From: Trypanosoma brucei
Taxonomy: Eukaryota
Reading direction: 5' to 3'
Length of the DNA: 64,000 bases
Assembly (NCBI GenBank): GCA_000002445.1
Contig: CM000208.1
Location: forward strand, 3,488,001 to 3,552,000
Positions 491 to 60,117 of this stretch are shown here, piece by piece. Under the pieces are notes generated by a model. It was not told the DNA's origin, did no database searches, and saw nothing but the letters and a program-made list of their open reading frames with translations. Each line of letters opens with the position of its first letter. Within the stretch, counting starts at the first letter, position 1. Position numbers and translations under genes: made by a program.

Positions 491-557
491 TTATTTGATT
501 CCTCATGTGGACTCCCTTCCCTGGTAGATGCAGGAATCCACATGAGGAATCAAATAA
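491..557. repeat. perfect 21 bp inverted repeat (ttatttgattcctcatgtgga and tccacatgaggaatcaaataa) with a 25 bp spacer, forming a potential hairpin
   Basis: Left arm 491-511 and right arm 537-557 are exact reverse complements. It sits in otherwise homopolymer-rich sequence. Confidence 0.85.
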
Positions 558-1232: not shown

Positions 1233-1276
<44 letters not shown>

Positions 1277-5510: not shown

Positions 5511-5830
5511 TTACATGGTGGGGCCTCCTCCTCCTCCTCCAAACATCCCGCGCATATTTCCTCCCGATGCTCCAAATCCCCCGCTGCCGAAACCGCCACC
5601 ACCGCCACCACCACCGCCGCCGCGACCACCGCCCATTCCAAAACCACCGCTGTTGCCGCCACGCCCGAAAACGTTGCTCATTCCAAAACCACCGCTGTTG
5701 CCACCCCGACCGCCGCGATAACCACCGCCACCACCGCCGCCACCGCGACCACCGCCCATTCCAAAACCACCGCTGTTGCCACCACGCCCGAAACCGCGAT
5801 AACCGCCGCCACCACCTCCGCGGTTATTGT
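5511..5830 (-). repeat. in-frame tandem DNA repeats encoding the Gly/Arg-rich tail of the helicase
   Basis: The block ccattccaaaaccaccgctgttgccaccacgcccgaaa... recurs at about 5630 and about 5750. At protein level the repeat is GGNSGGFGMGGGRGGGGGGGG. Confidence 0.8.
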
Positions 5831-7367: not shown

Positions 7368-8811
7368 TTTCAAATATCTTTTTTTTTTTGTGAGGGGCAA
7401 GATGGGTGCACAAGGTGGTGAAAGACGTGTCAAAGATTTAAAGCAAACAAGTAACGCTCGTGTAAAGAAGGACAGAGGACAAACAGTTAGCATAAACACG
7501 AAAACGGAGCAAAAAAGCAGCGGACCAAAGCATGGATACGCATGTGAGCAGTACGCAAAACAAAACAAAAAGGAATAAAAAATAGATCACGTTAAAAAAG
7601 CATTGAGGTGATCACACGAATGGCTTGGGCTCACCTCAAACAATACTCACATCACTCACGAACACATAATTCGATGTTGGTGTGCCTCATCCAACGTTCC
7701 CTTGAGTGTTTTTGCACACAATATTCAGTGGAAGGGAAAAGTAACAAGATGTAGCAGCAAAGGGGGAAAACAATGGAATACAACAAAACAAAGTAAGCAA
7801 TATAACAAGCTTCAACGGCCCAACATTACACAAAACATGTTTTGCAACCACGTCACTGCACAAAAGCCTCAATCTTTTTTTCCCCACCACCACCAGCATA
7901 AATAAGGGGTCTCATATAATATGCCTGAGATAACCTCTTTTCCTCACAGCAACAGCCCAGTAATTGCATCACCCCACCCCCACCCGTTAAAAATAAAAAA
8001 ATAAAAAGGACAAGGGCAACACCATCGCGTTTGTTTTTGGAACAAATTATGCACGTCCGCGCGCGGATGTACGCACGGAAACTAACAATGAAACTAAACC
8101 TTATGTCTCTCAGCCTCCCGTGAGAATATACGCTGCGTACACTTACACAGAAATTCGGTGAGGCCACGGCAGTGCAAGTAGTCCGCTTTGTAATGGGGCA
8201 CAACATCAGTGACAACTCTTTGGCACGAATTGCAGTGTTGCCTGAGGAAAGAAATCGAGAAAAAAAAGTGTTTACACTTTGATCCTTCCGTCAATATCGT
8301 AAGGTTGCAGCATAAACCCTCCATGCTGTTCATATCTCAGTGCAAGCGCAGATGCAACAGCCGCCGTTCACTATTCCACGGATGGCATAATCATCGGCGG
8401 CATTAAGTTCCTGTCTGTCCTTACCTACAAATAATGATCTCAACAATAAACAAATAGCAAATACACGAAGGAAAAACAAAACGCAGGAGAAGGACACATG
8501 TGAAATGTTACAAGTGAGGCCGACGAAACCTCCGAAACCACAGGTTACACCACTTCTGCGCGGCGAATCCAAACATGCAGAACAACCTACACATTACATA
8601 TCCCTCATTCTTTTCTAGTTCCCACAAGAATCCTTCCCACAACGCACGTAAACGAACTCCACCACAGGTGGTAAACACGTGGCAGTATAACGGACGCTGA
8701 GGAAGTAAAAAAAAAAAAATGTACATATATTGGTCTGTATAGATATGTTTGCGTACGCATAAATTAATACAAGGAAGCGTCTTACACCGGGGTCGATTCA
8801 CTGCCTCCGCC

Positions 8812-13343: not shown

Positions 13344-13674
13344 ATAGTAACGACCCAATGTGCCTCCTTCCAAATTTGATATAACTAAAATGAGCTTGAT
13401 GCCCACGCAGACAGCGAGAAAGGTAGTTAACAATTTTAAAAGAAAAAGACGGAGAAGAAGAGAGAAATTACCTGTTGAAAAACGTTTCACTCTTTTTCGG
13501 TAGTGTGCGGAAGCTCATGTCGCCTCTTTGTCTTCACAAGAGCCTGTGAAACAAAAGGGCCTCATTGAAGGAAAAAAAAACCGAATTCCTCTGTGCATTA
13601 GCAAAAACAAGCAATAATAACAGAAGAGAAATTAATTCAAAGAAAAATAATTGAAACCACCGTTGACCGCCGAT

Positions 13675-14512: not shown

Positions 14513-15448
14513 TTACTTTCCCGCCTTACAACCTGCAATAATAGATTTCACGCGCGGAATGACTCTCGCGGCGATCGGTTGCAACCGTGGAACAAGACGT
14601 GGGGCCAGCACCACGGTGACAGCCACCTCCAAAGGCACAAGAAGCTTGTTCAGTAGAATTGAAAGAGCCAAAGCAGTCCAAAATGAGGGATATTTCTTCT
14701 CTCCCTTCCCGTTGCCGCTATCCACATCTGTAGATGGTGCCTCGGAAGTACCGTCCTCTTTTCCAACTTTGAACCCGTACGACCGAGCGTAAGCAACAAC
14801 GTCGATGTGAAGAAAGTACAAGGTAAAGAAAATAATAGCCAATAAAATGTTGTGAACGATGAGGTAAAGGAGCAAACCACCCGCGCCGTAAGCGGCCAGT
14901 TTATGTTTTAAACCAGAAACCCCGTGCGGCGACGGCCCCGATGGCGGAGGAGGATTAACGTCCGGTGGAAAACCGCTACACGAGGACGAGGATGAACCGA
15001 AGCCATCCGTATTCCCTACTATTCCGTTGGTCTTCACACCTAGGGAACCACTGTTTCTAAAAACACGATTCGCTTCGTCAACGAAAAGTTTTTGGCGTCG
15101 GTGATACGTTGGGAAGCGGGTCGTGAACCCCTCAGGGACTTCGAACGTTGTTACATTGGTTACAAGATGATGGTAGTACGGCTTACGGTACTGCAATGAA
15201 AAATATTCACGCCAAACTACACACGGATCGTCATAATGGGGAATCTCATTGCTTGTTATTGTAGCAGCAAACATCGGGCAAGGACGAGCCACACACATCG
15301 CGGCTCTAACCGCCGGTAGGACAACGCCTCTTCCAACAGCATGCTGATCCTTCACACCGTTCGACGGCGGGGCTACGCCGCTTGCCGCGTCATGTGCAAG
15401 ATATCGGCATAAACCTACGTTTAACCTCACACAAGCTATCCGCCGCAT
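14513..15448 (-). CDS. hypothetical protein with a WW-like motif (W...YYHHLVTNVTTFEVP) and C-terminal transmembrane helices
   Basis: ORF of about 311 aa. The first ATG is at 15448, while the track start at 15451 is TTG. The protein has a WW-domain-like W-x(n)-YYHH-x-T-x-T-x(3)-P signature, a poly-Ser/Pro linker and two hydrophobic segments (LLLYLIVHNILLAIIFFTLYFL). Confidence 0.45.
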   Translation of the reverse strand: MRRIACVRLNVGLCRYLAHDAASGVAPPSNGVKDQHAVGRGVVLPAVRAAMCVARPCPMFAATITSNEIPHYDDPCVVWREYFSLQYRKPYYHHLVTNVTTFEVPEGFTTRFPTYHRRQKLFVDEANRVFRNSGSLGVKTNGIVGNTDGFGSSSSSCSGFPPDVNPPPPSGPSPHGVSGLKHKLAAYGAGGLLLYLIVHNILLAIIFFTLYFLHIDVVAYARSYGFKVGKEDGTSEAPSTDVDSGNGKGEKKYPSFWTALALSILLNKLLVPLEVAVTVVLAPRLVPRLQPIAARVIPRVKSIIAGCKAGK

Positions 15449-15685
15449 CAAGTCCTTCTACGCAGTAATATGGAAGAAGATCTTCAAAAAAAAAATTATG
15501 AAGGGAAAGAGTCACTACAGTAGTCACAAAACGGGTAAACGAAACGAACGAAACAGACATGGAAGCACAGACAAGATGCTTTCCAATCGAAGACCTCCTT
15601 AGCAGAGGGGAGCACGTTGTCAAAAAAAAAGAAAATAACAAAAACAGTTGCCGTCCATCGGGCTTTTGCAGTGAGCACCAATGCT

Positions 15686-33675: not shown

Positions 33676-34851
33676 CTAGAGTTTTGTCTCCCTCTCCAGA
33701 AGACGCAAAAAATTTCCCGGCACAAGTCCCTTCCGCTCCAATTTCTTGTCATCAGTTGCGGTAGTTGCCTGGCACCAACCATTTTCCGTGTAGTCATCAA
33801 CAATAAACCGGTCCCCGGTCTTGAATCCAATAAACCCCTCTTTCTCGGGGGATACATAATCAAACATGGCTACGTAGACACGTCCACCATTACAGTGTTG
33901 CGCATCGTGTCGATTTGACGAGCGAGCCGTTGCCTCTACTGTCTCATCAGACCACTCCTCCTCACTACTACAATCTTCACTCTCAGACAGTTCATCCTGT
34001 AATTCATCATCCTCCTCACTCAGGGTCAAGTCAGAATCTTTTCGTCTTAAAGACTGCCGAGCTGTCCAGTTACGGTACCGAAGATGTGCCCGGTACAGTA
34101 TTTCCATGAGTATAAATAGTGCAACCCTTAAAACCCACGACTTCCATCTTCCGCCTGCTGGAGGCGCAGAAGACCCACTGGGGGCTAATTCCGCGGCTTT
34201 TGCAACCGCTGCTCCAGAAATCCCTTTTGGTACTGCACCCTCCTGACTCTTTACTATAGACTTCAGAGCCTTTATACTGTAGTACGTTCCAAAGCCAACC
34301 CCAAACAGTTCTAAGCCCGACCGCATTAATTGGAAAAGAATCTGAAGCACATGACCAACGACCTCGATGGTTGAGTGTATAGCCAGCTGCTTCTTCTGTT
34401 GGCGATGCCTTTCTACAGCCTCCTTTTCTTGTCGCCGGCGCGCCCGTCTCTCCCGGCGAGTTTCGGTTGCTAAGGGTTTAGCAAACTGCAGAGGCTGCTG
34501 CTGGTCAGGCTGGGAAGGTAACAACCCACCACCAGCCTGGTCACCGGGAAGCGCTAAGGCCCCATTCATGCCATTGCCGCCTATAGCACCACCAACTGGA
34601 TTGCCCAGAATGCCGTTCATCCCCATGCCACCATAGGTACCGCTCATTGAAGAAAGACCTCCTCCATACATTGAACTCATCCCGCCACCAAGGCCACCAT
34701 AAACTGAGCTCATCCCTCCGCCATAGCCACCGTACATTGAAGACATTCCAGTGCCGTACATCGATGGCATCCCTGCACCATAACCACCGTACATTGAAGA
34801 CATTCCACTGCCGTACATCGATGGCATCCCTGCACCATAACCACCGTACAT
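33676..34851 (-). CDS. PEX13: peroxin PEX13-like glycosomal import protein with an N-terminal YG/MYGG repeat region, a central membrane region, a C-terminal SH3 domain and a C-terminal TKL tripeptide
   Basis: The N-terminus has (S)MYGGYGAGMP repeats, encoded by a 57 bp DNA tandem repeat. Hydrophobic core. A C-terminal SH3-like sequence RVYVAMFDYVSPEKEGFIGFKTGDRFIVDDYTENGWCQ...GLVPGNFL. It ends ...ETKL. The YG-rich plus SH3 architecture is diagnostic of PEX13. The first ATG is at 34851, while the track start at 34926 is GTG. Confidence 0.7.
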   Translation of the reverse strand: MYGGYGAGMPSMYGSGMSSMYGGYGAGMPSMYGTGMSSMYGGYGGGMSSVYGGLGGGMSSMYGGGLSSMSGTYGGMGMNGILGNPVGGAIGGNGMNGALALPGDQAGGGLLPSQPDQQQPLQFAKPLATETRRERRARRRQEKEAVERHRQQKKQLAIHSTIEVVGHVLQILFQLMRSGLELFGVGFGTYYSIKALKSIVKSQEGAVPKGISGAAVAKAAELAPSGSSAPPAGGRWKSWVLRVALFILMEILYRAHLRYRNWTARQSLRRKDSDLTLSEEDDELQDELSESEDCSSEEEWSDETVEATARSSNRHDAQHCNGGRVYVAMFDYVSPEKEGFIGFKTGDRFIVDDYTENGWCQATTATDDKKLERKGLVPGNFLRLLERETKL

Positions 34852-34860
34852 TTTTCCTTC
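34690..34860 (-). repeat. 57 bp in-frame tandem repeat (about 3 units) encoding the MYGGYGAGMPSMYG(S/T)GMSS repeats of PEX13
   Basis: cattgaagacattcca[c/g]tgccgtacatcgatggcatccctgcaccataaccaccgtaca is repeated back to back. Confidence 0.8.
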
Positions 34861-35439
34861 GCTTCGAGTATACACGCGCTGATATATGTAGATATACTTG
34901 GGTGCGTGCACGTCCTCTAGAAACACTTTCCTTTCCCTTTCACCTTTACACTTTTTTCGCAGTGTTAAGCTCGATTGCCATGGGGGGGGGGGTGAGTGAC
35001 AAGGAAGCAGAGTATAGATTTCGGCAAGATAGAATAGGTTATGTTGATGGAATCAATATTACAGCTGATGCAAAGCGTATTTCACGTTAACCCGCACACA
35101 TACTTGATAATAAAGCCGCCCTCTCATGTTCCGTGACGTGAAATTGATTCGCAAGCGGCAGACGCAAGGAAGAAAAAAAACGCGCAACAACCCAGCCCCA
35201 GGAGTAGCTCTGGGGGCAAAAAAAAAAACTGGTGACTAAAGAGGGCACGACGGCAGGGGGGTCAACAGCAGAGGAAGAAAAAAAATTGGAGGCGTTAATA
35301 ACAACAACAACTTGTAAAAACAAAAACGAGAAAAAACCTTCGTACATAAAGGGAGAGTATGCTTCTACACACATGCTACCGCGTGAAGGAAATCTTTTTA
35401 ATTATTGGTGAACACTTGGAGAAACAAATTGGAGAAGGT

Positions 35440-41740: not shown

Positions 41741-43663
41741 CTACACCTTCTTGACTTGGGACGCCCGAACGAAGACACCCTTCCCTTTCGGGCATGTAAA
41801 GTATTGTTTTTTATCAATAAACGAAGATCCATCGTTAGTCCCTTCATTTCCTTCAAACATTTCCAATCCTATCCAGATACCGGCACCAAAAGCTGTAGGG
41901 CCATTGAAGCGAACAGCCGCACGGAATCCTTTATACGTGACAATGTCACCTATATGCAAATCTTTCGCCGAGCTAACGTGATTAACGGCGGCGGAACGAC
42001 CGGGTGTAGTGGAACGGGTGCCGAAGCGCCCGGGTGTGGTGGTCCTTGTTGAAGTATGGCTCACCGGCAGAGAGCTGTTCGCCAGCCGAGACACACCGGC
42101 ACGCGCTGCCGACGTGCTCCGACCCGTGGTGGTAGTTCGGGACGGCGTACCGCTGCGCATCGGTGTTGAGCCGATGGTACGCGAGTGTGTGGCCCCAGCA
42201 ACCCGAACGGGAGTTCCACGTCGAACGGTACTTGCCGCGCTTCTCGCAAGTGGGCTCCGTGTCGTTAACCTGTTGCCTGCTGGTCGTGACATGGAGCCGT
42301 TGGAACTTTCGTTGGCGCTGCTACGCCCTGGACGCACGCCTGTGCGTGCAGGGGAAGTAACCCGCAGCGAGCTGCTTGTGCCGGCGGCGCGGCCTGCACC
42401 GACACGCGAAGCCGTGGAAGGAGTCTCGGCTCGCCGCGGGGTGCTCGTGCGGCGGTTTTCTTTCTCGCGTGTCGCTCGGCTCTCCTCCCGCCGCTCCTGT
42501 GCCTCTCGCAGTCTCTGGTTTTCACGTTGCAGGAGTGTAATACACTGGTGCAACGCCTGTGCCTCCTTGTTGAACATTTTGCAAGCTTGAGCCACCTCAG
42601 GAGTGGGCAATGTTTCAAGGATTTTTGGTACCATAACCGATTGTCGTGGGCGCGCTACATCCTCTAACCATTGATGCCCAAGCGCGTCGTTGAGAGACAT
42701 TCGTTTGTGGGGATCCTTGTTTAGCAACCTCTCAATGAAATCAAAGGCGATGGGCGATATGCCCTGCGGCTCGGGCAGCGTCGTGTCCATGATGAAACGA
42801 AAAACCTCCTTCTCTGGGGCGTGGGCAGCTGCGGAGTAGGGAAAGCTCCCGGAGAGCATAATGTAAGTCACGACACCAACCGACCATGTGTCTGCCTTGA
42901 AACCATCGTAGTGTGTTTGAGTAAATTTTGCATAAAACATTTCTGGTGGGCCGTACCGAGGCGTGCCAATGACATCTGAGCAAACGATGCGCTTACCAAT
43001 AAGGCGCTCAGCGCCAGGGTATTGCATGGATAAACTAATAGGATCTAATGCATCGCGCTCCTCCGCGGACGTACATATGCCTTTGGACCGCTTAGCAAGA
43101 CCAAAGTCCGTCAACTTGATGTTATCGTCATCACTAACAAGCAGATTCTCCGGTTTTATGTCACGGTGAATAACATCGTGGATGTGACAATGTAGCACAG
43201 CTTTTATTATCTGATATGTGTAGTATTTCGACGTTTCCTCAGACAGTTTCCCCTCCGGTGCTTGGAGAATTATTTCACACAAGTCACCACACTGAACCTC
43301 CTCAAAGAAAAGAAGAAACTCCTCCTCTGTCTCAATGTACTCTAAAAATGTGACAACATTACCATGCGACGGAATGTGACGTAGTACATCGATCTCCCGT
43401 TTCACCTCTGCCATGGCGCGCTCCACATTTCCCTTGGTCAGAGACAAAAGGTACTCCTTCTGTATTATCTTCACAACAACCTTCATTCCTGGTTGAAATG
43501 ACGGTGGCTCGTACGGATCAATAACCGAACAGCGCTTGACTACGCTCCACGCCCCACGCCCGGCGACAGAATCGTTATGGATGATATATTTATTATCTAC
43601 ATGAGTGACATCCGCCGTTGGTGGGTTTTCTTGTGCAGTCACTTCTGTGTCAGTGGATTCCAT
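41741..43663 (-). CDS. Ser/Thr protein kinase (CAMK-like catalytic domain) with a Ser/Thr/Arg-rich linker and a C-terminal CAP-Gly domain
   Basis: The kinase has a lysine in VVVKII, HRDIKPENLL, DFGLAK and GTPRYGPPE. The linker is STPxR/SRTxT low complexity. A C-terminal GDIVTYKGFRAAVRFNGPTAFGAGIWIGLEMFEGNEGTNDGSSFIDKKQYFTCPKGKGVFV matches the CAP-Gly consensus (GxxV...G.VRF.G.T.F..G.W.G.E.......G.NDG......YF.C....G.F). The first ATG (MESTD) is at 43663. The track start is TTG. Confidence 0.75.
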   Translation of the reverse strand: MESTDTEVTAQENPPTADVTHVDNKYIIHNDSVAGRGAWSVVKRCSVIDPYEPPSFQPGMKVVVKIIQKEYLLSLTKGNVERAMAEVKREIDVLRHIPSHGNVVTFLEYIETEEEFLLFFEEVQCGDLCEIILQAPEGKLSEETSKYYTYQIIKAVLHCHIHDVIHRDIKPENLLVSDDDNIKLTDFGLAKRSKGICTSAEERDALDPISLSMQYPGAERLIGKRIVCSDVIGTPRYGPPEMFYAKFTQTHYDGFKADTWSVGVVTYIMLSGSFPYSAAAHAPEKEVFRFIMDTTLPEPQGISPIAFDFIERLLNKDPHKRMSLNDALGHQWLEDVARPRQSVMVPKILETLPTPEVAQACKMFNKEAQALHQCITLLQRENQRLREAQERREESRATREKENRRTSTPRRAETPSTASRVGAGRAAGTSSSLRVTSPARTGVRPGRSSANESSNGSMSRPAGNRLTTRSPLARSAASTVRRGTPVRVAGATHSRTIGSTPMRSGTPSRTTTTGRSTSAARAGVSRLANSSLPVSHTSTRTTTPGRFGTRSTTPGRSAAVNHVSSAKDLHIGDIVTYKGFRAAVRFNGPTAFGAGIWIGLEMFEGNEGTNDGSSFIDKKQYFTCPKGKGVFVRASQVKKV

Positions 43664-45285: not shown

Positions 45286-46140
45286 CTAGACCTTTAAGAA
45301 GGGATGTTGCAAGAGCGTTGCAGCGTCGGGGCGCTCCGCAACGGTGCGACGGAAACATAAGTCAAGAAAATCGTACGCCTCCTGCGATCCTAAGGCATTA
45401 GGGTCCTTTGGGATAGCATCGGGCCAACCTGTGGACATGGCGAGTTTGTTCATTATATGCATCACATTAGCCATGGGTGTCCACGGTGCACGACCCGTAA
45501 TCATCTCGGCAACCGTGCACCCAGCCGACCAAATATCCGCCTTAAATGGATCGTACCCATTCTCATCCGTAATAACTTCTGGGGCCATCCAGTAAGGAGT
45601 GCCTGCAAGCGTGGATGTCGCCGCCTGCCGAAGAGTTCCATATGTGGTCATAACCTTCGCTTGGTCGAAATCGGCGAGCTTTGCTATGCCTGTGTCCATT
45701 GATATAAGCAGGTTGTCCCCCTTTATATCACGGTGAGCAACTTTATTCCGGTGCAAATATTCCAATCCAGAAAACATTTGGCGGGAATACACACGCACCA
45801 CTGGGTACGGCAGATGACCATTGGGGAGAGTCTTCATGAGCGACGAAACGGAGCCGCCAGTGACAAACTCGAGATACAAGTACAAACGTTTGGGCGTGCT
45901 CTCGTTATCGATGCGGCTGTGAAGGTATCGAATGACGTTTTCATGCACCAACTTCTTGTGAACCTCCACCTCGGTGTTAGTTGGGGAATCTTCCGCCAAT
46001 TCCAACTCCTTAACAGCAACAAACTGCCCACTGGGAAGGATGCCGGCATATACTGAGCCAAAGCTCCCGCTACCAAGTTTCTTACCCATCGTTATTTGGT
46101 TCAACTCAGCCACATCCACGGAACACATGCCTGCGGGCAT
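45286..46140 (-). CDS. protein kinase, STE/MAP3K-like catalytic domain only (284 aa), with an atypical DFD in place of DFG
   Basis: GSGSFGSV glycine loop, VAVK, HRDIKGDNLL, KLADFDQA (DFD), GTPYWMAPEV. ATG at 46138-46140. Confidence 0.75.
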   Translation of the reverse strand: MPAGMCSVDVAELNQITMGKKLGSGSFGSVYAGILPSGQFVAVKELELAEDSPTNTEVEVHKKLVHENVIRYLHSRIDNESTPKRLYLYLEFVTGGSVSSLMKTLPNGHLPYPVVRVYSRQMFSGLEYLHRNKVAHRDIKGDNLLISMDTGIAKLADFDQAKVMTTYGTLRQAATSTLAGTPYWMAPEVITDENGYDPFKADIWSAGCTVAEMITGRAPWTPMANVMHIMNKLAMSTGWPDAIPKDPNALGSQEAYDFLDLCFRRTVAERPDAATLLQHPFLKV

Positions 46141-49926: not shown

Positions 49927-51090
49927 TTAAAAGTTGAACGCTTCATCGTCAAGTCCAGGTTTGGGAGGCAGTTGCGATCCGGCAGAATCTGATCCGGGAG
50001 GTCCTCCCCCAAAAAACAAGGTCGTAGATGAACTAGCCCGGTCCCTTCCTAGTGTAGCTGCAGAAGAAGCTCCCTCGCATCCACCAAAGCTTGTCGTACT
50101 GACACTTAACCTGCGTGCAGCACCGGCAGCATGAAATGGGTTGTGAGGCTGGCCGGTGGCGATACCCGCATACATTGCCGTCGCTGTACCCCCAGCCTCC
50201 GCCGCACTTCCTGTGCCAGTGAAGTAAGGATGCCGAAGACACTGCGTAGCTGTTAGACGGTCACTCGGGTTAAACTTCAACATCTGTTCCATTAAATCGA
50301 TGGCGTTTGGTGGAGCACCAGCCAATAACTGTCGTAGTGGCGTTGGAGCCACCGTTGGAAAGCGCATATTTAGGCGACGCAAGAGCTGGTAACCTTCATC
50401 CCACTCTGCGGTAGTTGGAGCCCCAAGAATTGAACAGATCTTGAACAGTTGGTCATTACCTGACGACCCCGGAAAGAGGGGTCGGTTCAGATAAAGCTCA
50501 GCAAATATGACACCGCAAGCCCATATATCTACAGGGGAATTGTAGTGAGTGGAACGGAGGATTATTTCCGGTGCCCTGTACCACCGAGTCGACACATATT
50601 CCGTGAACGGTGGCCGAGAACGAATTTCCTTAGCTAATCCAAAGTCGGCCACCTTCACAACATCCCCCTTCGTCAGCAAATTTTCAGGTTTCAGATCGCG
50701 ATGCATGAAACCGTTCTTGTGCATGGCCTGTACCGCTAAAAGAGTCTGGCACATAATGCTTCGAATTTCCCGGTCATTGAAAATGCTTTGAACACCTCCC
50801 ATTTGTTCGGACCGCATCCGTTGAATCCCAAAGAGGTTCATTTCCATATACTCAAATATAAGAAAGAGTTCGTTGTTCTCGCGAACAACCTCCCTTAGCT
50901 TTACGATGTTAGGATGGTGCACCTTCCTAAGAAACTGAACCTCACGTAGTTGTAAACACTCCTCCCAGTTAGAGAAACGTTGCTTCATCTTTTTAACGGC
51001 AACAACTTCTCCTGTGCTGGTGTTTTGGGCCTTACTCACGACACCGAACGAACCGTCACCTAGCTGACCCAATATCGTATACCGATTCAT
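49927..51090 (-). CDS. CMGC protein kinase of the RCK (MAK/ICK/MOK/LF4-like) type with a TEY activation-loop motif and a Gly/Ala/Ser-rich C-terminal tail
   Basis: GDGSFGVV, VAVKKMK, HRDLKPENLL, DFGLAKE, TEYVSTRWYRAPE, DIWACGVIFAEL. ATG at 51088-51090. Confidence 0.75.
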   Translation of the reverse strand: MNRYTILGQLGDGSFGVVSKAQNTSTGEVVAVKKMKQRFSNWEECLQLREVQFLRKVHHPNIVKLREVVRENNELFLIFEYMEMNLFGIQRMRSEQMGGVQSIFNDREIRSIMCQTLLAVQAMHKNGFMHRDLKPENLLTKGDVVKVADFGLAKEIRSRPPFTEYVSTRWYRAPEIILRSTHYNSPVDIWACGVIFAELYLNRPLFPGSSGNDQLFKICSILGAPTTAEWDEGYQLLRRLNMRFPTVAPTPLRQLLAGAPPNAIDLMEQMLKFNPSDRLTATQCLRHPYFTGTGSAAEAGGTATAMYAGIATGQPHNPFHAAGAARRLSVSTTSFGGCEGASSAATLGRDRASSSTTLFFGGGPPGSDSAGSQLPPKPGLDDEAFNF

Positions 51091-52894: not shown

Positions 52895-53818
52895 CTAATT
52901 CGATCTGCGCCACTCCACATAAATGGGTTTCAGCGCATCCACGCCGGAAAGTACACCAGCGCCAGCGATACCGCGTAGGATGTTTGCACCAGCGCCTCGC
53001 ATCAGGGACGCAGCTCCCTCCTGTTTAATCACCTGCAACATACAATCCATCGAGTTCTTGTACTTCACAGCAGCACCTGATGTCATCATCATGCGCCGGC
53101 GAACGGTGTCCAACGGGTAAGAAAGAAGCCCCGCCACAATAGTCACAGCCCATCCAAGGAAGAAGTTTACGATGAATGTGTCCACAGGAAGCATTGGCTG
53201 AAGGGTGTCGTAAAGACCAAAGTAGAAACCACGGTACACAACAATACCAATACAGGATACCACAAAGCCACGATACAACCCAGCGATGCCATCACTCTTC
53301 CATGTCTTGACATAGCAGTCCACAATACCGTTAAATTGGCGCTCCCCACCACCCTTCACAGACTTCGTGTCGTTAGCGAGACGGGTACGGACGTAGTCCA
53401 AGGAATACACAAAACAAAGAGATGCAGCACCAGCGAGACCACCAGATGCCATGTTACCCATAAACCACTTGCCATAGCCATCCTTCTCCTTTTTGTAATT
53501 GAACATCCTCTTAAATTTATCCTTAAAGGCGAAATTCAGCGCCTGAGTTGGAAAGTAACGCAGAACATTTGACAGGTTACCTCGCCAAAGCGGATACACG
53601 CCCTCCGTGCTGATGGTGCGCCGAAAGCAGTCAACGACACCGTTGTATGGCTTGTCCAGTCGGCCTTGCTTCATCATCTCTCCCTGGTTCTGTACGAGCA
53701 GTTTTACTCTTTCGATTGGAGCAGCCGCCGTCTTGGATAAACCGGCAGCGACACCACCAATCATAAACTCCTCAAGGAACCCAAGTTTGGGGGCCGGTTC
53801 CCGCTTTTTATCCGTCAT
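52895..53818 (-). CDS. mitochondrial ADP/ATP carrier (AAC, SLC25 family), tandem copy 1
   Basis: 307 aa with three mitochondrial-carrier repeats. The RRRMMM AAC signature (DTVRRRMMM), with [26 protein letters not shown] and GNMASGG. ATG at 53816-53818. Confidence 0.92.
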
Positions 53819-54274
53819 CCTGATAATGCAAAAAGGTGTGCGATACTTCCTGAGAGAAAAATATATATAGCAGTAAGGAATTATAATTCTTTTTTTTTTA
53901 CAAACTTTAAGAAATGCAAGGGATGGTTGGGAACATTGCCTAATCGAAAGTGCGTGCTAAATATAACGATCGAAAATTGCTCCGTCATAAAAAAGTAATT
54001 AAAACAAAAATAACAAATTTACCGAATGCCCCACGATGGTAACAGCCACACTGTACACCACGCGCTGTGCCCCGTTATTTCCCAGTGAGTTTCTACAGAT
54101 TGCGCTCGTTGCCGCTCATGATAATCGTGACCTTCTTGGCCTTTGCCCTATTTTTTTTCTCTTAAAACAAACATATATCTCATCAAAGGCAGGTTCCCCC
54201 GCGCGCACTGCGTCCGTGATCCCGCACCCTACTGAAAACAGAAGATGACGGTACAACGTACCTCAATGAAATCA

Positions 54275-55198
54275 CTAATTCGATCTGCGCCACTCCACAT
54301 AAATGGGTTTCAGCGCATCCACGCCGGAAAGTACACCAGCGCCAGCGATACCGCGTAGGATGTTTGCACCAGCGCCTCGCATCAGGGACGCAGCTCCCTC
54401 CTGTTTAATCACCTGCAACATACAATCCATCGAGTTCTTGTACTTCACAGCAGCACCTGATGTCATCATCATGCGCCGGCGAACGGTGTCCAACGGGTAA
54501 GAAAGAAGCCCCGCCACAATAGTCACAGCCCATCCAAGGAAGAAGTTTACGATGAATGTGTCCACAGGAAGCATTGGCTGAAGGGTGTCGTAAAGACCAA
54601 AGTAGAAACCACGGTACACAACAATACCAATACAGGATACCACAAAGCCACGATACAACCCAGCGATGCCATCACTCTTCCATGTCTTGACATAGCAGTC
54701 CACAATACCGTTAAATTGGCGCTCCCCACCACCCTTCACAGACTTCGTGTCGTTAGCGAGACGGGTACGGACGTAGTCCAAGGAATACACAAAACAAAGA
54801 GATGCAGCACCAGCGAGACCACCAGATGCCATGTTACCCATAAACCACTTGCCATAGCCATCCTTCTCCTTTTTGTAATTGAACATCCTCTTAAATTTAT
54901 CCTTAAAGGCGAAATTCAGCGCCTGAGTTGGAAAGTAACGCAGAACATTTGACAGGTTACCTCGCCAAAGCGGATACACGCCCTCCGTGCTGATGGTGCG
55001 CCGAAAGCAGTCAACGACACCGTTGTATGGCTTGTCCAGTCGGCCTTGCTTCATCATCTCTCCCTGGTTCTGTACGAGCAGTTTTACTCTTTCGATTGGA
55101 GCAGCCGCCGTCTTGGATAAACCGGCAGCGACACCACCAATCATAAACTCCTCAAGGAACCCAAGTTTGGGGGCCGGTTCCCGCTTTTTATCCGTCAT
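54275..55198 (-). CDS. mitochondrial ADP/ATP carrier, tandem copy 2 (identical)
   Basis: Identical 307 aa translation. Spaced exactly 1380 bp from copy 1. Confidence 0.92.
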
Positions 55199-55654
55199 CC
55201 TGATAATGCAAAAAGGTGTGCGATACTTCCTGAGAGAAAAATATATATAGCAGTAAGGAATTATAATTCTTTTTTTTTTACAAACTTTAAGAAATGCAAG
55301 GGATGGTTGGGAACATTGCCTAATCGAAAGTGCGTGCTAAATATAACGATCGAAAATTGCTCCGTCATAAAAAAGTAATTAAAACAAAAATAACAAATTT
55401 ACCGAATGCCCCACGATGGTAACAGCCACACTGTACACCACGCGCTGTGCCCCGTTATTTCCCAGTGAGTTTCTACAGATTGCGCTCGTTGCCGCTCATG
55501 ATAATCGTGACCTTCTTGGCCTTTGCCCTATTTTTTTTCTCTTAAAACAAACATATATCTCATCAAAGGCAGGTTCCCCCGCGCGCACTGCGTCCGTGAT
55601 CCCGCACCCTACTGAAAACAGAAGATGACGGTACAACGTACCTCAATGAAATCA

Positions 55655-56578
55655 CTAATTCGATCTGCGCCACTCCACATAAATGGGTTTCAGCGCATCC
55701 ACGCCGGAAAGTACACCAGCGCCAGCGATACCGCGTAGGATGTTTGCACCAGCGCCTCGCATCAGGGACGCAGCTCCCTCCTGTTTAATCACCTGCAACA
55801 TACAATCCATCGAGTTCTTGTACTTCACAGCAGCACCTGATGTCATCATCATGCGCCGGCGAACGGTGTCCAACGGGTAAGAAAGAAGCCCCGCCACAAT
55901 AGTCACAGCCCATCCAAGGAAGAAGTTTACGATGAATGTGTCCACAGGAAGCATTGGCTGAAGGGTGTCGTAAAGACCAAAGTAGAAACCACGGTACACA
56001 ACAATACCAATACAGGATACCACAAAGCCACGATACAACCCAGCGATGCCATCACTCTTCCATGTCTTGACATAGCAGTCCACAATACCGTTAAATTGGC
56101 GCTCCCCACCACCCTTCACAGACTTCGTGTCGTTAGCGAGACGGGTACGGACGTAGTCCAAGGAATACACAAAACAAAGAGATGCAGCACCAGCGAGACC
56201 ACCAGATGCCATGTTACCCATAAACCACTTGCCATAGCCATCCTTCTCCTTTTTGTAATTGAACATCCTCTTAAATTTATCCTTAAAGGCGAAATTCAGC
56301 GCCTGAGTTGGAAAGTAACGCAGAACATTTGACAGGTTACCTCGCCAAAGCGGATACACGCCCTCCGTGCTGATGGTGCGCCGAAAGCAGTCAACGACAC
56401 CGTTGTATGGCTTGTCCAGTCGGCCTTGCTTCATCATCTCTCCCTGGTTCTGTACGAGCAGTTTTACTCTTTCGATTGGAGCAGCCGCCGTCTTGGATAA
56501 ACCGGCAGCGACACCACCAATCATAAACTCCTCAAGGAACCCAAGTTTGGGGGCCGGTTCCCGCTTTTTATCCGTCAT
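55655..56578 (-). CDS. mitochondrial ADP/ATP carrier, tandem copy 3 (identical)
   Basis: Identical 307 aa translation. Spaced exactly 1380 bp from copy 2. Confidence 0.92.
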
Positions 56579-59500
56579 CCTGATAATGCAAAAAGGTGTG
56601 CGATACTTCCTGAGAGAAAAATATATATAGCAGTAAGGAATTATTTAGCAAAAAATAATTTTTTGCGGTGAGGGTTAATAGTTTAGTAGTTATCGATGAT
56701 GTACTTACAAAAATTCTTTATTATGCTAACATATCTATCTTTCTTTTTGGTGAAAGAAATTTAAGCAGTTATAATTGACTCATGTTGATTCCATATACCC
56801 TTCTTGACGCTGAGTGTTTTTTTAATTTCGTTTATCACCTTTTGCATCTTTTTTTCTTGTAGCCACGGGACACCACCAAAATATTCCTGTTATTACCATC
56901 AAAAGCATTGAGGAAGGACGAGTAATCTACACTATATATGCAAATCTTGGCTCAATGTTGTCATTAGTCATACGGTCCATATGCACCAGACGCGGCTAGT
57001 CGGGCCGAAAAATGCGTGCAATTTTCTCAACCAATCTTTCTGCACGTAGACGCATGCCCTTAAATGTTCGTATATTTACGTATACATGTATATTTGGGGC
57101 ACTTGATATTCGATGCGTTACAAGGAATTCCTTGTTTCCTCTCCGTTTAAATGCCTACGAGAAATGAAAAGTAGATTGGGGGAAATACACACAGCTGCTT
57201 TGCCTAAGTTTTGCCTTGTTTTTCTATATAGTCTAAACAACAATACTTTAATTCATGCCTAAATATCCATTTTTATGTACCTCATTGCAAAAGATGAATC
57301 AATCTGAAGAAAAATAATGTAAATATGAAAGGGATGTGAGAAACCACGCTGACACAGGAAAGTAACAAACAATTTAAGAGGAAGGCACCAAGTGCATGAG
57401 ATAAAATGTTTAGATATAATTTTATATCAAGATGGAGCACACATGCGCAAATGGCAACTACCTCGGTTGGTCAACAAAAACTCTCTTACGGAGAGTGGGC
57501 GACAGAAGTCACTTCTGAGAACCTGAAAACGGGTGAAACAATGCGAAATTGCGCTCATATATACAGTTCCGTGCTCATATGCATACGTTTAATACGTTAT
57601 TCGTTTTTCGTCTCGCTTGTTTTCCAAATTACCGGCACCTACGATGTGTATGAAAGAGAAAGTCAAAAGAACTAAGAAAGAAAAATCCGAAGATGGTCAA
57701 GAGTACTTCGGAATTAAAATCATCGCATAGCGAAACTCAAGCACTTCGGGACCCCCATTTAACAAAGTTCGTGTAGTTGGCCAAGCGACTATCTCAATTC
57801 TGACTATGCCTTCCATACAAATCGCCTTTAATTTTCTTTTCACCTTTTAATATGAAAGTTACCATCAATCTTAGATATAGCAGCATCAGCAGCAAACGGC
57901 ACGTCCAATATATCAAATGACCGATTATTTCTGTTGCACTTAAAATAAAGAACGTCAGTGGTTGTTTCAATCGCAGCAGGACAGATACACGTTTTCTGAC
58001 ACTAGAGCGTCCAGTGAATTAACTACTTCCACCACGCGTGCTTCATTGATCACGATTAGTTAAGTGTGTGTGGGAAAACGGTAACCTTAGGGTTCATGTC
58101 TCCGGTAGCTGAACCTCAAATTTTTCACTTATCACCCACTACACAACTTCACATTTTAAACATAGCCGGTGCTCGCAGAACTATTTCCGTGATCTTCTTT
58201 TTACTATTCTTTCCCTATCACATTGATTCGTAGAATGCGTTTAAGTCACCCCAATGAATAAACTCAAACCTTTCAAGTGTCTTAGAAACCGGAGAGGTGA
58301 TCTCACACCCACGACTACATCCCACTACAGGTGGGGAAATCCTCCTTTTAGGTGCATCTACAACAATCTGAAGATCCAAACCTACCCCCCCCCCCCAAGT
58401 AAAACCCTTATGTGACAAAAACAAGGTCCCTATACGCATCAGAAACTGCATAAACCAAACGATGTACCGCACAAGCTGAAAGTTCTAGCTTTGTACCGAT
58501 ATATCATCGTTACTGTTATAGCAATTAGATCCGTGAAAGAAGTTCAAACTGTATCGAGCGTCAAGAAGTAGCGTCCATAAATGGTAATTATAATAATATA
58601 CGGCCAGTTGTCACCGTGCGAAAACGCAACTCATATATTAGCACCGCTTCCAAGATGGAGATGGTCTGAACATGGGGAACGACCCTGACGGAAAGTATCG
58701 TGAGGTTCCAAAGCCCATCAGGGCTAAACCCCGCAGTCCATATACTCGACTCGGTCACGGGGGTGCATAACGAAATCAGCATCACCACCGTCCGCAACAA
58801 GAAACCCCTGCGGATACCTTTCACAGAGTAAATAAAATTCTCTAAACAAAATTACCTTAGGATGTTGTGTCACAAAAACAAACTAAACCCAGCATCCACT
58901 AGGCCTCTGCACCTTTTCCAGTAATATATCGGATGAATCGGAGCGCTGAGTCGAACGCGGTACTCTAGGTTAGGCATTTCATTTCCTCTCACGGTACCAA
59001 CGCCTCGCTTTTTTTTTATAATTCATTGCTTTGTGGCATGCGAGGCGTAAAGCTCAGCCGCCGCTCTCTTAGAAGCGGTCCTGCCTTCATTAAGACATTT
59101 GGTGTGTCAGCGACATTATCCGTGCTTCTTTCATTGTGAAATCTAACCGTAGTCATAGTAGCAGGCAAATGTCTTCCTCCATTGCCAACAGGACCTCCAT
59201 ATTTATTTTTTATTTAAAAGCCTTTAGTCTGTAAAGTTACGCTGAACTCCTGACAAACAGCAGCACAATGAGTATGATCTAACAATCCACTGGACAGAAC
59301 AGTGGCAGCACGCTCCACATGTCACTCATCGAACAATGACCGAATTTTCCATATTTCTATCTCCTCTAAATTCACATCACCGAGCTCATGTTTTTCTCAA
59401 GCATTACTCAACATGGAAACAAATCCGCTCCACACATCATTTTTTTCTGTTAACGGCGGCAAACAAGCGACAATGATTATTACCCGAAGTCGGTAGTAAA

Positions 59501-60117
59501 AGAGTGTCCATGGCCCTAACGCATAGCTTTTCATGCGACCATCCAGCCTTCCGTACCATAACTGATACCCTTCAGACACTCCAACGGCGATCGAGCACAA
59601 AACTATCCTTGTTCATGCTCCGACACGCATCCGCTGGCAATAACAACCAAATATCTTATTGATAAAACCAGAATTTCCATGAAAAAAGAGATAATCCATA
59701 GAGGAAAGTTGGTTCACCCACTGGCATCGCACTTTCAGATTTTGGTAGGTTGACGCAGTATTACTTCAAACAATCACCAATTCCCTGGACGATACATGCG
59801 TCATTACATTTTATTTTCGAAGTTCCCACATTGGTATAAAGCCACAGTTTTCATTGACCCACCGAACCGAGAAAGAAAATCATTTCGGTACCGCCTTAAC
59901 GATGAACGTTTTTCTCTTTTTTTTTTTTAGCAATGCCCGAAGAAACCTCACTCTTCTATACAGCATTGTTAGCTCCATAGCGGTCGATGAGACTGTGAAC
60001 GCAACGTTTCCCGTAAAGATATCGGCACACGTCCATTTAAAATAATATCAAGTCAGCAGCTGCTGCTGACACTTAAACTCCCGATTCCTTACAAAAAAAG
60101 AGAGGGAAAAGAGAAGT

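What the first reader, a model, noticed from the sequence alone, without database searches (positions are those of the whole stretch)
41741..43663. Protein kinase fused to a C-terminal CAP-Gly domain
CAP-Gly domains normally sit in CLIP-170, p150Glued or tubulin-folding cofactors, where they bind the EEY/F tails of alpha-tubulin and EB1. A CAMK-like kinase followed by a long Ser/Thr/Arg-rich phospho-regulatable linker and a CAP-Gly is an unusual architecture. It suggests a kinase recruited to microtubule plus ends or to tyrosinated tubulin in the flagellum or subpellicular array.
Basis: partly seen in the sequence, partly recalled or inferred. Interest (0 to 1): 0.65.

Follow-up and report, generated by a model that had tools for sequence, protein, structure and literature searches.

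The report
Known trypanosome kinase AKB1 with CAP-Gly
The ORF really does encode a CAMK-like protein kinase with a C-terminal CAP-Gly microtubule-binding domain, but it is the already named Trypanosoma brucei cytokinesis kinase AKB1 (Tb927.10.14770), and the architecture was tabulated in 2005, so the finding is correct but not new.

Summary
Observation confirmed. Window 41741-43663 (- strand) is one uninterrupted 640-codon ORF. Pfam finds Pkinase (E=4.4e-50) and a C-terminal CAP_GLY domain (E=5e-15, 55.6 bits against a 26.5 cut-off). The modelled CAP-Gly domain superposes on human p150Glued CAP-Gly at 1.0 A rmsd.

The protein is 100% identical to T. brucei Q388C7 (Tb927.10.14770), "Associated kinase of Tb14-3-3" (AKB1). 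This is a CAMK-group kinase with published kinase activity, 14-3-3 association and cytokinesis phenotypes, and loss of fitness in mice. Curated GO terms list microtubule binding, homodimerisation and autophosphorylation. The 2005 TriTryp kinome paper already lists one cap-gly CAMK each in T. brucei, T. cruzi and L. major.

What I add:
- The full layout (kinase, about 50-residue helix, about 160-residue disordered basic Ser/Thr linker, CAP-Gly) is kept in all 35 aligned relatives, down to Bodo saltans and unnamed deeper lineages.
- The linker carries seven R-x-x-S/T-P and seven S/T-P-x-K/R motifs, about ten times the shuffle expectation. Six sites are conserved in position.
- The CAP-Gly motif is GTNDG, never GKNDG, in any relative, followed by a family-specific two-residue insertion. 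Canonical EEY/F-tail binding therefore cannot be assumed.

Verdict: already known, low interest. The ligand specificity of the variant CAP-Gly appears to be open.

The parts
41741..43663 (-). Complete AKB1 coding sequence (640 codons plus TAG stop), identical to Tb927.10.14770 / Q388C7
   Evidence: ORF and translation. 640/640 identity to P0121, which is Q388C7_TRYB2, EAN78843.1, T. b. gambiense CBH16690.1 and T. equiperdum 'Associated kinase of Tb14-3-3'.
42665..43588 (-). Protein kinase domain (aa 26-333), CAMK-like, with all catalytic residues present: K65, E90, H166-R167-D168, N173 and D186-F187-G188, each invariant in 31/31 relatives
   Evidence: Pfam Pkinase E=4.4e-50. Best solved relatives are DAPK1, SNRK, CASK, PhK-gamma and AMPK. 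Residue conservation. AF2 pLDDT >90.
42968..43099 (-). Extended activation segment (aa 189-232): about 52 residues between DFG and P-P-E, with an ordered family-specific insert. Asp230 (D/E in 28/31 relatives) sits three residues before the G-T-P-x-Y motif.
   Evidence: Alignment blocks, conservation counts, and pLDDT 81-93 with two short helices at 208-212 and 218-221. Reading Asp230 as a phosphomimetic is an inference.
42446..42601 (-). Long single helix (aa 355-406). Its first half has a heptad-like hydrophobic seam and its second half is an Arg/Glu-rich charged helix. Probable dimerisation element.
   Evidence: AF2 helix H355-406 at pLDDT about 90. Conserved F-D-x-E-x-x-x-L-H-x-C-I-A-x-L-x-R-E-x-x-x-L-R consensus. 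Heptad count. A curated GO term 'protein homodimerization activity' exists for the gene. Assigning dimerisation to this helix is an inference.
41969..42445 (-). Disordered basic Ser/Thr-rich linker (aa 407-565; pI 12; +25/-2; 36% S+T) with repeated R-x-x-S/T-P-x-R motifs
   Evidence: pLDDT <50 and composition. There are 7 R..[ST]P and 7 [ST]P.[KR] motifs against shuffle means of 0.65 and 0.76, with 0 of 5000 shuffles reaching the observed counts. T414, S437, S470, T484 (31/31), T543 and T553 are conserved in position.
42437..42454 (-). RRTSTP (aa 404-409), the only match to the 14-3-3 mode-I consensus R-x-x-pS/T-x-P
   Evidence: Motif scan. It is present only in the six Trypanosoma sequences and absent in Leishmaniinae and bodonids.
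42071..42073 (-). Ser531, an experimentally detected and cell-cycle-regulated phosphosite
   Evidence: Benz & Urbaniak 2019, S2 Table: Tb927.10.14770 S531, localisation probability 0.998, log2 FCmax 1.70, peaking in early S phase. The protein level is flat, with log2 FCmax 0.285. The surrounding S-S-L-P (SxIP-like) motif is not conserved.
41744..41968 (-). C-terminal CAP-Gly domain (aa 566-640). The protein ends three residues after the Pfam match.
   Evidence: Pfam CAP_GLY E=5e-15. PDB sequence hits. AF2 pLDDT 90.3. Foldseek TM 0.8-0.9 and rmsd 1.0 A to p150Glued CAP-Gly.
41828..41842 (-). Variant ligand-binding motif G608-T609-N610-D611-G612, followed by a family-specific two-residue insertion (S614-F615)
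   Evidence: Pairwise alignment to p150Glued GKNDG. Position 609 is T in 23, L in 3, V in 2, and A, I and S in 1 each of 31 relatives, and is never K. N610 is kept in 28/31; S614 and D617 are invariant. Most other CAP-Gly domains lack the two inserted residues (consensus gap).

Best explanation
This is the Trypanosoma brucei gene for AKB1 (Tb927.10.14770), a catalytically competent CAMK-group Ser/Thr kinase that regulates cytokinesis.

Shown here:
- It has four modules: (1) an active-type kinase domain with a long ordered activation-segment insert; (2) a roughly 50-residue helix; (3) a roughly 160-residue disordered, strongly basic Ser/Thr-rich linker studded with conserved R-x-x-S/T-P-x-R sites; (4) a C-terminal CAP-Gly domain of p150Glued type.
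- The whole layout is conserved across Kinetoplastea and in deeper unnamed relatives.

Taken from the literature: kinase activity, association with Tb14-3-3, cytokinesis and cell-division defects on over- or under-expression, loss of fitness in mice, curated microtubule binding, homodimerisation and autophosphorylation, and cell-cycle-regulated pS531.

Inferred mechanism:
- The helix dimerises the protein.
- The two CAP-Gly domains, together with the basic linker, hold the kinase on microtubule structures. This is the arrangement CLIP-170 and p150Glued use, where a CAP-Gly sits next to a basic Ser-rich region on a coiled-coil dimer.
- Multi-site proline-directed phosphorylation of the linker (by CRK/MAPK-type kinases, and possibly autophosphorylation at R-x-x-S/T) lowers its positive charge and creates 14-3-3 docking sites. 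This would tune microtubule residence and kinase output through the cell cycle.
- CAP-Gly motif position 2 is Thr rather than Lys, and the adjacent loop is two residues longer, so the exact ligand may differ from the canonical EEY/F tail.
For: Identity: 640/640 to Q388C7, named 'Associated kinase of Tb14-3-3', and equated with Tb927.10.14770 (CAMK, AKB1) in PMC5522463. Domains. Catalytic residues are invariant. Architecture is conserved in 35 aligned relatives, including T. cruzi, T. vivax, Leishmania, Phytomonas and Bodo saltans, and in three more distant kinase+CAP-Gly proteins found with the CAP-Gly profile. Helix and disorder. Linker motif enrichment and positional conservation. Charge. 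Experimental pS531 peaks in early S phase at constant protein level, and curated GO terms list microtubule binding, homodimerisation and autophosphorylation. Phenotypes: PMC5522463 and PMC7618733. The Leishmania orthologue is cited among cell-division-linked CK1.2 partners in the basal-body/MTOC context. Human dynactin-1's best T. brucei BLAST hit is this gene (5e-10, not reciprocal), so its CAP-Gly is the most p150-like in the genome.
Against: The primary AKB1 paper (Inoue et al. 2015, PMID 25681612) is not held. What it showed about the CAP-Gly domain, localisation and the 14-3-3 site is therefore known to me only through citations and GO terms. The Lys of GKNDG is absent in every relative, and Lys-to-Ala is reported as deleterious for EEY/F binding in canonical domains. 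The only mode-I 14-3-3 motif is restricted to Trypanosoma. The conserved sites have Pro at +1, which by general knowledge is a poor fit to 14-3-3 consensus motifs. Assigning dimerisation to the helix, and charge-tuned microtubule release, are inferences. No localisation data could be retrieved.
Confidence: 0.72

Rival explanations
1. The CAP-Gly domain is a diverged protein-protein interaction module that no longer reads tubulin or EB1 EEY/F tails. CYLD CAP-Gly domains are a precedent: they bind ubiquitin or other partners. Under this reading microtubule association, if real, comes mainly from the basic linker binding acidic tubulin tails electrostatically.
For: Motif position 2 is never Lys in 35 relatives. 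Lys-to-Ala is deleterious for peptide binding in canonical domains. A conserved two-residue insertion follows the motif, next to the binding groove. The linker has net charge +23 and pI 12. CYLD CAP-Gly3-ubiquitin structures are among the fold matches.
Against: Every other groove position aligned to p150Glued is kept: F592, W597, N610, D611, G612, Y621, F622, F631 and R633 are invariant or nearly so. The closest solved relatives, at 39-40% identity and 1.0 A rmsd, are the EB1- and tubulin-tail-binding p150Glued and CLIP-170 domains, not CYLD. Non-Lys variants such as GMHDG and GVHDG are common among other CAP-Gly domains, and Lys occupies only 47% of 471 domains in the nearest representatives, so the change need not abolish function.
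Confidence: 0.2
2. The CAP-Gly and linker act mainly as an intramolecular regulatory unit. They would auto-inhibit the kinase until released by phosphorylation and 14-3-3 binding, as the C-terminal regulatory segments of other CAMKs do. On this view they are not a localisation device.
For: CAMK-group relatives (DAPK1, CaMKII, PhK-gamma) are regulated by segments C-terminal to the kinase domain (family knowledge; nearest hits). aa 334-354, directly after the kinase core, is ordered in the model at pLDDT 88-95. 14-3-3 association and autophosphorylation are on record.
Against: The curated GO function includes microtubule binding. The CAP-Gly is separated from the kinase by about 160 disordered residues. 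No tool available here could score an interdomain contact, because the output carries no PAE. The two roles are also not mutually exclusive.
Confidence: 0.06
3. The kinase-CAP-Gly juxtaposition is an assembly or gene-fusion artefact of this window.
For: None found.
Against: It is a single uninterrupted ORF. The identical 640-aa protein occurs in four Trypanozoon genomes. The same architecture occurs in more than 35 independent sequences from genomes and metagenomes.
Confidence: 0.01

Closest known systems
Trypanosoma brucei AKB1 (Tb927.10.14770; UniProt Q388C7), 'associated kinase of Tb14-3-3', Inoue et al. 2015 J Biochem 158:49
   Same: The two are identical over all 640 residues, so this is the same gene. 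It is listed as a CAMK with proven kinase activity, cytokinesis and cell-division phenotypes and in-vivo loss of fitness. Curated GO terms cover microtubule binding, homodimerisation and autophosphorylation.
   Different: Nothing differs at sequence level. The points added here are conservation of the whole layout beyond trypanosomatids, the GTNDG variant with its insertion, and the statistics for the repeated R-x-x-S/T-P-x-R sites. I could not check whether the 2015 paper already covers these, because it is not held.
CAP-Gly +TIPs: dynactin p150Glued and CLIP-170
   Same: Same CAP-Gly fold (TM 0.8-0.9, rmsd 1.0 A, 39-40% identity), with conserved groove aromatics and Arg. A CAP-Gly lies next to a basic Ser-rich region on a protein with a long helix and reported dimerisation, which is the same design logic for microtubule binding (family knowledge).
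   Different: The CAP-Gly is C-terminal rather than N-terminal. The effector is a kinase, not a motor adaptor. The motif is GTNDG with a two-residue insertion instead of GKNDG. There are no zinc knuckles and no EEY/F tail (the protein ends ...QVKKV). It is not an orthologue, since the dynactin-1 BLAST hit is not reciprocal.
Doublecortin-like kinase DCLK1 and MARK/Par-1 (CAMK-group kinases tied to microtubules)
   Same: Each is a CAMK-type catalytic domain joined through a Ser/Pro-rich phospho-regulated linker to a microtubule-directed function. DCLK1 and MARK1 appear among the kinase-domain relatives. This is the nearest analogue for how AKB1 may work.
   Different: The microtubule-binding module is a DCX domain, placed N-terminally in DCLK. 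MARK has no CAP-Gly. Neither is an orthologue, and their kinase domains are about 28-30% identical to AKB1.
T. brucei tubulin-binding cofactor B CAP-Gly (PDB 4b6m)
   Same: It is another trypanosome CAP-Gly domain whose binding motif departs from GKNDG (GKGDG, a trypanosomatid-specific Asn-to-Gly change). The fold match is rmsd 1.1-1.4 A.
   Different: A different motif position is changed: Asn in TBC-B and Lys in AKB1. Sequence identity is only 31%. TBC-B is a tubulin-folding cofactor with a ubiquitin-like domain, not a kinase.
KIF13B (kinesin-3 with C-terminal CAP-Gly)
   Same: An enzyme (a motor) carries a single CAP-Gly at its extreme C-terminus that biases it towards tyrosinated microtubules (bioRxiv 10.1101/2022.08.09.503328 abstract). 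Its CAP-Gly is a sequence and fold match.
   Different: It has the canonical GKNDG motif and a motor domain rather than a kinase domain, and it is a metazoan protein.

Membership tests
Eukaryotic protein kinase superfamily (Pfam PF00069) | HMM match above the gathering threshold | tested here: met
   E=4.4e-50, 171 bits against a 31.7 cut-off.
Eukaryotic protein kinase superfamily (Pfam PF00069) | Catalytic residues: beta3 Lys, alphaC Glu, HRD, catalytic-loop Asn, DFG and Gly-rich loop | tested here: met
   K65, E90, H166-R167-D168, N173 and D186-F187-G188 are invariant in 31/31 relatives, with the loop G35-x-G37-x-x-S40. Kinase activity is reported in the literature.
CAMK group | Nearest characterised kinase domains belong to the CAMK group | tested here: met
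   The top PDB hits are DAPK1/2/3, SNRK, CASK, PhK-gamma, AMPK/Snf1, CIPK and MARK1. The top named non-orthologous database hits are CaMKII and DCLK1. The gene is classified CAMK in PMC1266030 and PMC5522463. No dedicated kinome-group HMM was run.
CAP-Gly domain (Pfam PF01302) | HMM match above the gathering threshold over the full domain | tested here: met
   E=5e-15, 55.6 bits against 26.5, covering profile positions 2-65 of 65. A family profile scores E=5e-18 against the p150Glued CAP-Gly.
CAP-Gly domain (Pfam PF01302) | CAP-Gly fold | tested here: met
   The AF2 model has pLDDT 90.3. The 45 best Foldseek PDB matches are all CAP-Gly domains, and the best have TM 0.81-0.93 and rmsd 0.9-1.0 A.
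CAP-Gly domain (Pfam PF01302) | Conserved GKNDG ligand-binding motif | tested here: not met
   The motif is G-T-N-D-G. The Lys is replaced in all 35 relatives by T, S, A, V, I or L, while Gly, Asn, Asp and Gly are kept. This does not remove the domain from the family, because only 47% of 471 CAP-Gly domains in the nearest representative proteins have Lys there. It does remove the basis for assuming canonical EEY/F binding.
CAP-Gly domain (Pfam PF01302) | Binding of C-terminal EEY/F peptides (alpha-tubulin, EB1) | not testable with these tools
   This needs binding assays. Curated GO lists microtubule binding for the gene, but I could not see the underlying experiment.
AKB1 orthologue group (Tb927.10.14770) | Sequence identity with the named T. 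brucei protein | tested here: met
   640/640 identical to P0121, which is Q388C7 / EAN78843.1.
14-3-3 client proteins | Mode-I (R-S-x-pS/T-x-P) or mode-II docking motif | tested here: inconclusive
   There is one mode-I match, RRTSTP at aa 404-409, kept only in Trypanosoma (6 of 35), and one loose mode-II-like match, RLANSSLP, which contains the detected pS531 and is not conserved. Physical association is taken from the literature title and name.
SxIP-type EB1-dependent +TIPs | [S/T]-x-[I/L]-P motif in a basic Ser-rich region, conserved among orthologues | tested here: not met
   SSLP at aa 530-533 exists in T. brucei only. Other relatives have no such motif, or one at a non-homologous position.
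CLIP-170 / p150Glued families | N-terminal CAP-Gly(s), long coiled coil, and family-specific C-terminal regions (zinc knuckles and an ETF tail, or dynactin-binding regions) | tested here: not met
   The CAP-Gly is C-terminal and the N-terminus is a kinase. Pfam finds no other domain. The BLAST relation to dynactin-1 is non-reciprocal.

The most novel reading that the evidence does not exclude
The AKB1-family CAP-Gly has Thr or an aliphatic residue in place of the GKNDG Lys, plus an invariant two-residue loop insertion, fixed since before trypanosomatids and bodonids diverged. It could be a reader tuned to the kinetoplastid tubulin code. In kinetoplastids both alpha-tubulin (-EEY) and, unusually, beta-tubulin (-EQY in T. 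brucei, -EAY in L. mexicana) carry a removable C-terminal tyrosine (PMC11761321). AKB1 would then be a tyrosination-sensing kinase that reports newly assembled, still tyrosinated microtubules (posterior end, new flagellum and basal-body region) to the 14-3-3 and cytokinesis machinery. That would give a direct enzymatic link between a tubulin modification and cell-cycle signalling.
Probability: 0.15. Interest if true: 0.6.

Novelty: already known. Interest (0 to 1): 0.15.

Why it matters
As a discovery it matters little. The gene is annotated, named and experimentally characterised, and its domain combination has been in print since 2005.

It still has practical interest. AKB1 is needed for fitness of bloodstream T. 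brucei in mice and for Leishmania amastigote formation. Fusion of a kinase to a CAP-Gly domain is rare, and it is conserved across kinetoplastids.

What appears to be open, and is made concrete here, is what the variant GTNDG CAP-Gly actually binds. A second open point is whether the six positionally conserved R-x-x-S/T-P sites act as the switch between microtubule association and 14-3-3 binding. If the ligand proved to be tyrosinated alpha- or beta-tubulin, AKB1 would be a rare case of a kinase that reads the tubulin code directly.

Tried and rejected
- The primary AKB1 paper (PMID 25681612) is not held. Its content is used only through citing papers and curated GO terms.
- TrypTag localisation: searching the 15 supplementary files held for PMC9981465 for Tb927.10.14770 gave no occurrence, so the localisation check could not be done.
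- Leishmania gene id: the guesses failed. LinJ.19.0940 is annotated as 4-coumarate-CoA ligase, although the LmxM.19.0940 id itself remains unresolved. LmxM.19.0150 is an STE kinase. I therefore could not look up the Leishmania kinome localisation or phenotype tables.
- EB1 recruitment through an SxIP motif was rejected as a conserved mechanism. SSLP (aa 530-533) is T. brucei-specific, although it contains the cell-cycle-regulated pS531.
- A canonical 14-3-3 mode-I site as the conserved docking point was rejected, because RRTSTP occurs only in Trypanosoma.
- Naming the organisms of the deeper kinase+CAP-Gly relatives (P0016-P0038, P0180, P0220, P0254) failed. Cluster look-ups returned only Logan, ENA and JGI records without taxon names, so the range beyond Kinetoplastea (Bodo saltans is the deepest named member) stays undefined.
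- A first regex-based tally of motif variants missed 199 of 474 domains. I replaced it with a tally by profile column.
- tRNA and Rfam scans of the whole window found nothing.
Full report
Yes. The minus strand of window 41741-43663 is one open reading frame. It runs from the first ATG (43661-43663) to a TAG stop (41741-41743) and encodes 640 residues.

Pfam finds a protein kinase domain (PF00069, aa 58-333, E=4.4e-50, 171 bits). It also finds a full-length CAP-Gly domain at the extreme C-terminus (PF01302, aa 572-637, profile positions 2-65 of 65, E=5e-15, 55.6 bits against a curated cut-off of 26.5).

The CAP-Gly stretch alone matches solved CAP-Gly domains of p150Glued, CLIPR-59, KIF13B, CAP350 and CLIP-170 at E=2.7e-12 to 1e-5. 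A profile of 19 family members raises this to 5e-18.

An AlphaFold2 model of aa 560-640 (pLDDT 90.3) superposes on p150Glued CAP-Gly crystal structures with TM 0.80-0.93 and rmsd 0.9-1.0 A. The 45 best Foldseek hits are all CAP-Gly domains.

The kinase domain's nearest solved relatives are DAPK1, SNRK, CASK, phosphorylase kinase gamma, AMPK/Snf1 and MARK, so "CAMK-like" is correct.

**2. What is it?**
The protein is 640/640 identical to a database entry that carries these accessions: EAN78843.1 / Q388C7 (T. brucei brucei TREU927), CBH16690.1 (T. b. gambiense) and a T. equiperdum record named "Associated kinase of Tb14-3-3". PMC5522463 equates this with Tb927.10.14770, "CAMK, AKB1".

The window is thus a stretch of a Trypanozoon chromosome. 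Every ORF of at least 250 aa lies on the minus strand, as expected for a polycistronic unit. The neighbours are fibrillarin, clathrin light chain, two other protein kinases, an M24 peptidase and three tandem mitochondrial carrier genes.

**3. What was already known?**
- Parsons et al. 2005 (PMC1266030, Table 2) list a "cap-gly" accessory domain on exactly one CAMK kinase in each of T. brucei, T. cruzi and L. major. Their comment is "cytoskeleton associated", and they note the same domain on VPS15 in other kinomes.
- Inoue et al. 2015 named the kinase AKB1 after finding it among Tb14-3-3-binding proteins.
- According to PMC5522463 it has proven kinase activity. [quoted passage not shown]
- AKB1 RNAi causes loss of fitness in mice, and in culture only after 96 h.
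- A 2022 review lists AKB1 among kinases with loss-of-fitness phenotypes both in T. brucei bloodstream forms and during Leishmania amastigote formation.
- A 2026 study cites Leishmania AKB1 among the cell-division-linked CK1.2-associated proteins it discusses in the basal-body/MTOC context.
- The supplement of Benz & Urbaniak 2019 reproduces the curated GO functions for the gene: ATP binding, microtubule binding, protein homodimerisation and kinase activity, with autophosphorylation as a process.
- The same supplement reports phospho-Ser531, which peaks in early S phase (log2 1.70) while protein abundance stays flat (log2 FCmax 0.285).
- I could not read the 2015 paper itself.

**4. Anatomy and what I can add**
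I aligned 35 relatives that all carry both domains. They are Trypanosoma grayi, melophagium, vivax, cruzi and conorhini, Novymonas, Leishmania, Leptomonas, Phytomonas, Porcisia, Bodo saltans and many unnamed environmental sequences, at 78-35% identity.

*(a) Kinase.*
- K65, E90, HRD 166-168, N173 and DFG 186-188 are invariant.
- A conserved P-Y-x-P-P insert lies between strands beta2 and beta3.
- The activation segment is unusually long, with about 52 residues between DFG and P-P-E. It is nevertheless confidently modelled (pLDDT 81-93) and conserved.
- The residue three positions before the G-T-P-x-Y motif is Asp or Glu in 28 of 31 relatives.
- By analogy with phosphorylase kinase gamma, this could replace activation-loop phosphorylation. 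That is my inference.

*(b) Helix.*
- Residues 355-406 form one long helix (pLDDT about 90).
- Its first half has a heptad-like hydrophobic seam and its second half is rich in Arg and Glu.
- It is the obvious candidate for the reported homodimerisation, which again is an inference.

*(c) Linker.*
- Residues 407-565 are predicted disordered.
- The linker is 36% Ser+Thr, has 25 basic against 2 acidic residues, and has pI 12.
- It contains seven R-x-x-[S/T]-P and seven [S/T]-P-x-[K/R] motifs. Composition-preserving shuffles give 0.65 and 0.76, and none of 5000 shuffles reached the observed counts.
- Six sites are conserved in position: T414 (29/31), S437 (28/31), S470 (26/31), T484 (31/31), T543 (26/31) and T553 (21/31).
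- These fit proline-directed (CDK/MAPK-type) consensus sites, and they carry the Arg at -3 that CAMKs favour.
- The only 14-3-3 mode-I motif (RRTSTP, aa 404-409) is confined to Trypanosoma. The SxIP-like SSLP around pS531 is T. brucei-specific.

*(d) CAP-Gly.*
- Aligned to p150Glued, the groove residues are kept: F592, W597, N610, D611, G612, Y621, F622, F631 and R633. The p150 numbering behind this comparison is from my own knowledge.
- The motif reads GTNDG. Position 609 is Thr, Ser or an aliphatic residue, and never Lys, in any relative.
- Two extra residues (S614 invariant, F615) follow the motif.
- Fleming et al. (PMC3806363) state that mutating either the Lys or the Asn of GKNDG to Ala is deleterious for EE[Y/F] peptide binding. 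They also report that T. brucei TBC-B carries a trypanosomatid-specific variant, GKGDG.
- The deviation is not unprecedented. Among 471 CAP-Gly domains in the 147 non-kinase proteins closest to the AKB1-type profile, only 47% have Lys and 7% Arg at that column. Most of them lack the two-residue insertion.

**5. Distribution**
I searched 1.84 billion representative proteins with the CAP-Gly profile. The top of the list is dominated by multi-CAP-Gly proteins and ankyrin-CAP-Gly proteins.

The single-domain, C-terminal hits include three further kinase+CAP-Gly proteins of 598, 861 and 1168 aa. They share the family signatures (G-R/S-G-A/T-W-S/A-V-V, G-T-x-R-Y-x-A-P-E-M-F, S/T-P-rich linker, G[TL][NH][DN]G). 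One of them (P0254) has a short, ordinary-length activation segment, so the insert is not universal. None of these deep relatives carries an organism name. The deepest named member is the free-living bodonid Bodo saltans.

**6. How it most likely works**
The shown facts are the four-module architecture, its conservation, the catalytic competence of the kinase, the disordered poly-basic multi-site linker and one cell-cycle-regulated phosphosite. From the literature come the kinase activity, 14-3-3 association, microtubule binding, dimerisation, autophosphorylation and the cytokinesis role.

My inferred mechanism is as follows:
- AKB1 is a dimer, formed through the helix.
- Its two CAP-Gly domains and basic linkers anchor it on microtubule structures. 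This is the same design as CLIP-170 and p150Glued.
- Multi-site phosphorylation of the R-x-x-S/T-P-x-R sites reduces the positive charge and generates 14-3-3 binding, which would modulate residence and output during the cell cycle.

The closest functional analogues are DCLK1, a CAMK kinase tethered to microtubules by another module through a Ser/Pro-rich linker, and KIF13B, an enzyme with a C-terminal CAP-Gly.

The main rival, at about 0.2, is that the Lys-less CAP-Gly no longer reads EEY/F tails and the basic linker does the microtubule binding. A second rival, at about 0.06, is a primarily auto-inhibitory role. An assembly artefact is excluded.

**7. Novelty and score**
However, the gene, its name, its domain combination and its link to microtubules and cell division are all already published, so I rate the novelty as "already known" and the interest as low (0.15).

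The most novel reading still open is that the conserved GTNDG-plus-insertion CAP-Gly is tuned to the kinetoplastid tubulin code. In these organisms beta-tubulin as well as alpha-tubulin carries a removable C-terminal tyrosine (-EQY or -EAY). That would make AKB1 a tyrosination-sensing kinase. I put this at about 0.15 probability. It would be of moderate-to-high interest if shown, and peptide-binding experiments with the isolated domain can test it directly.

Noticed in passing
window 11187-13490 (-): A 767-aa ORF combines a kinesin motor domain (PF00225, E=1.9e-28) with C-terminal MORN repeats (PF02493, E=1.7e-15). This is another uncommon pairing of a cytoskeletal enzyme with an accessory domain.
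   Followed up: no
window 52895-56578 (-): Three tandem ORFs of 307 aa each lie at a 1380-bp period, and the one scanned encodes a mitochondrial carrier protein (PF00153, E=5.9e-68). This looks like a tandem gene array typical of trypanosomatid dosage amplification.
   Followed up: partly
window 45286-46140 (-) and 49927-51090 (-): Two further protein kinase genes (284 aa and 387 aa, Pkinase E=2e-57 and 2e-72) lie just upstream of AKB1 in the same polycistron, separated by an M24 peptidase-like gene.
   Followed up: no
window 1-4000: This is a strongly AT-rich stretch (GC 0.30-0.32 against about 0.49 elsewhere) with many AT, AAAT and poly-A microsatellites and no ORF of 250 aa or more. It lies downstream of the last gene of the minus-strand unit, a DEAD-box helicase at 5511-7568 with a Gly-rich repeat. 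I found no tRNA or Rfam match. It could be a long 3' UTR or intergenic region, or the end of the transcription unit.
   Followed up: partly
window 33676-34926 (-) and 14513-15451 (-): A 416-aa protein has a C-terminal SH3 domain (SH3_2 28.1 bits against a cut-off of 21.8). A 312-aa protein has a FAM210 domain and a borderline WW domain (24.7 bits against a cut-off of 26.9).
   Followed up: no
window 43517-43519 (codon 49 of AKB1): The cluster representative P0001, from a Logan read-assembly, differs from the window and from the reference strains by a single residue: His instead of Asp49, in the conserved I-x-P-Y-x-P-P insert between beta2 and beta3. This is apparently a strain polymorphism or an assembly error.
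   Followed up: partly
window 56001-60000: GC content drops locally to 0.41-0.43, downstream of the start of the mitochondrial carrier array. I did not examine it.
   Followed up: no
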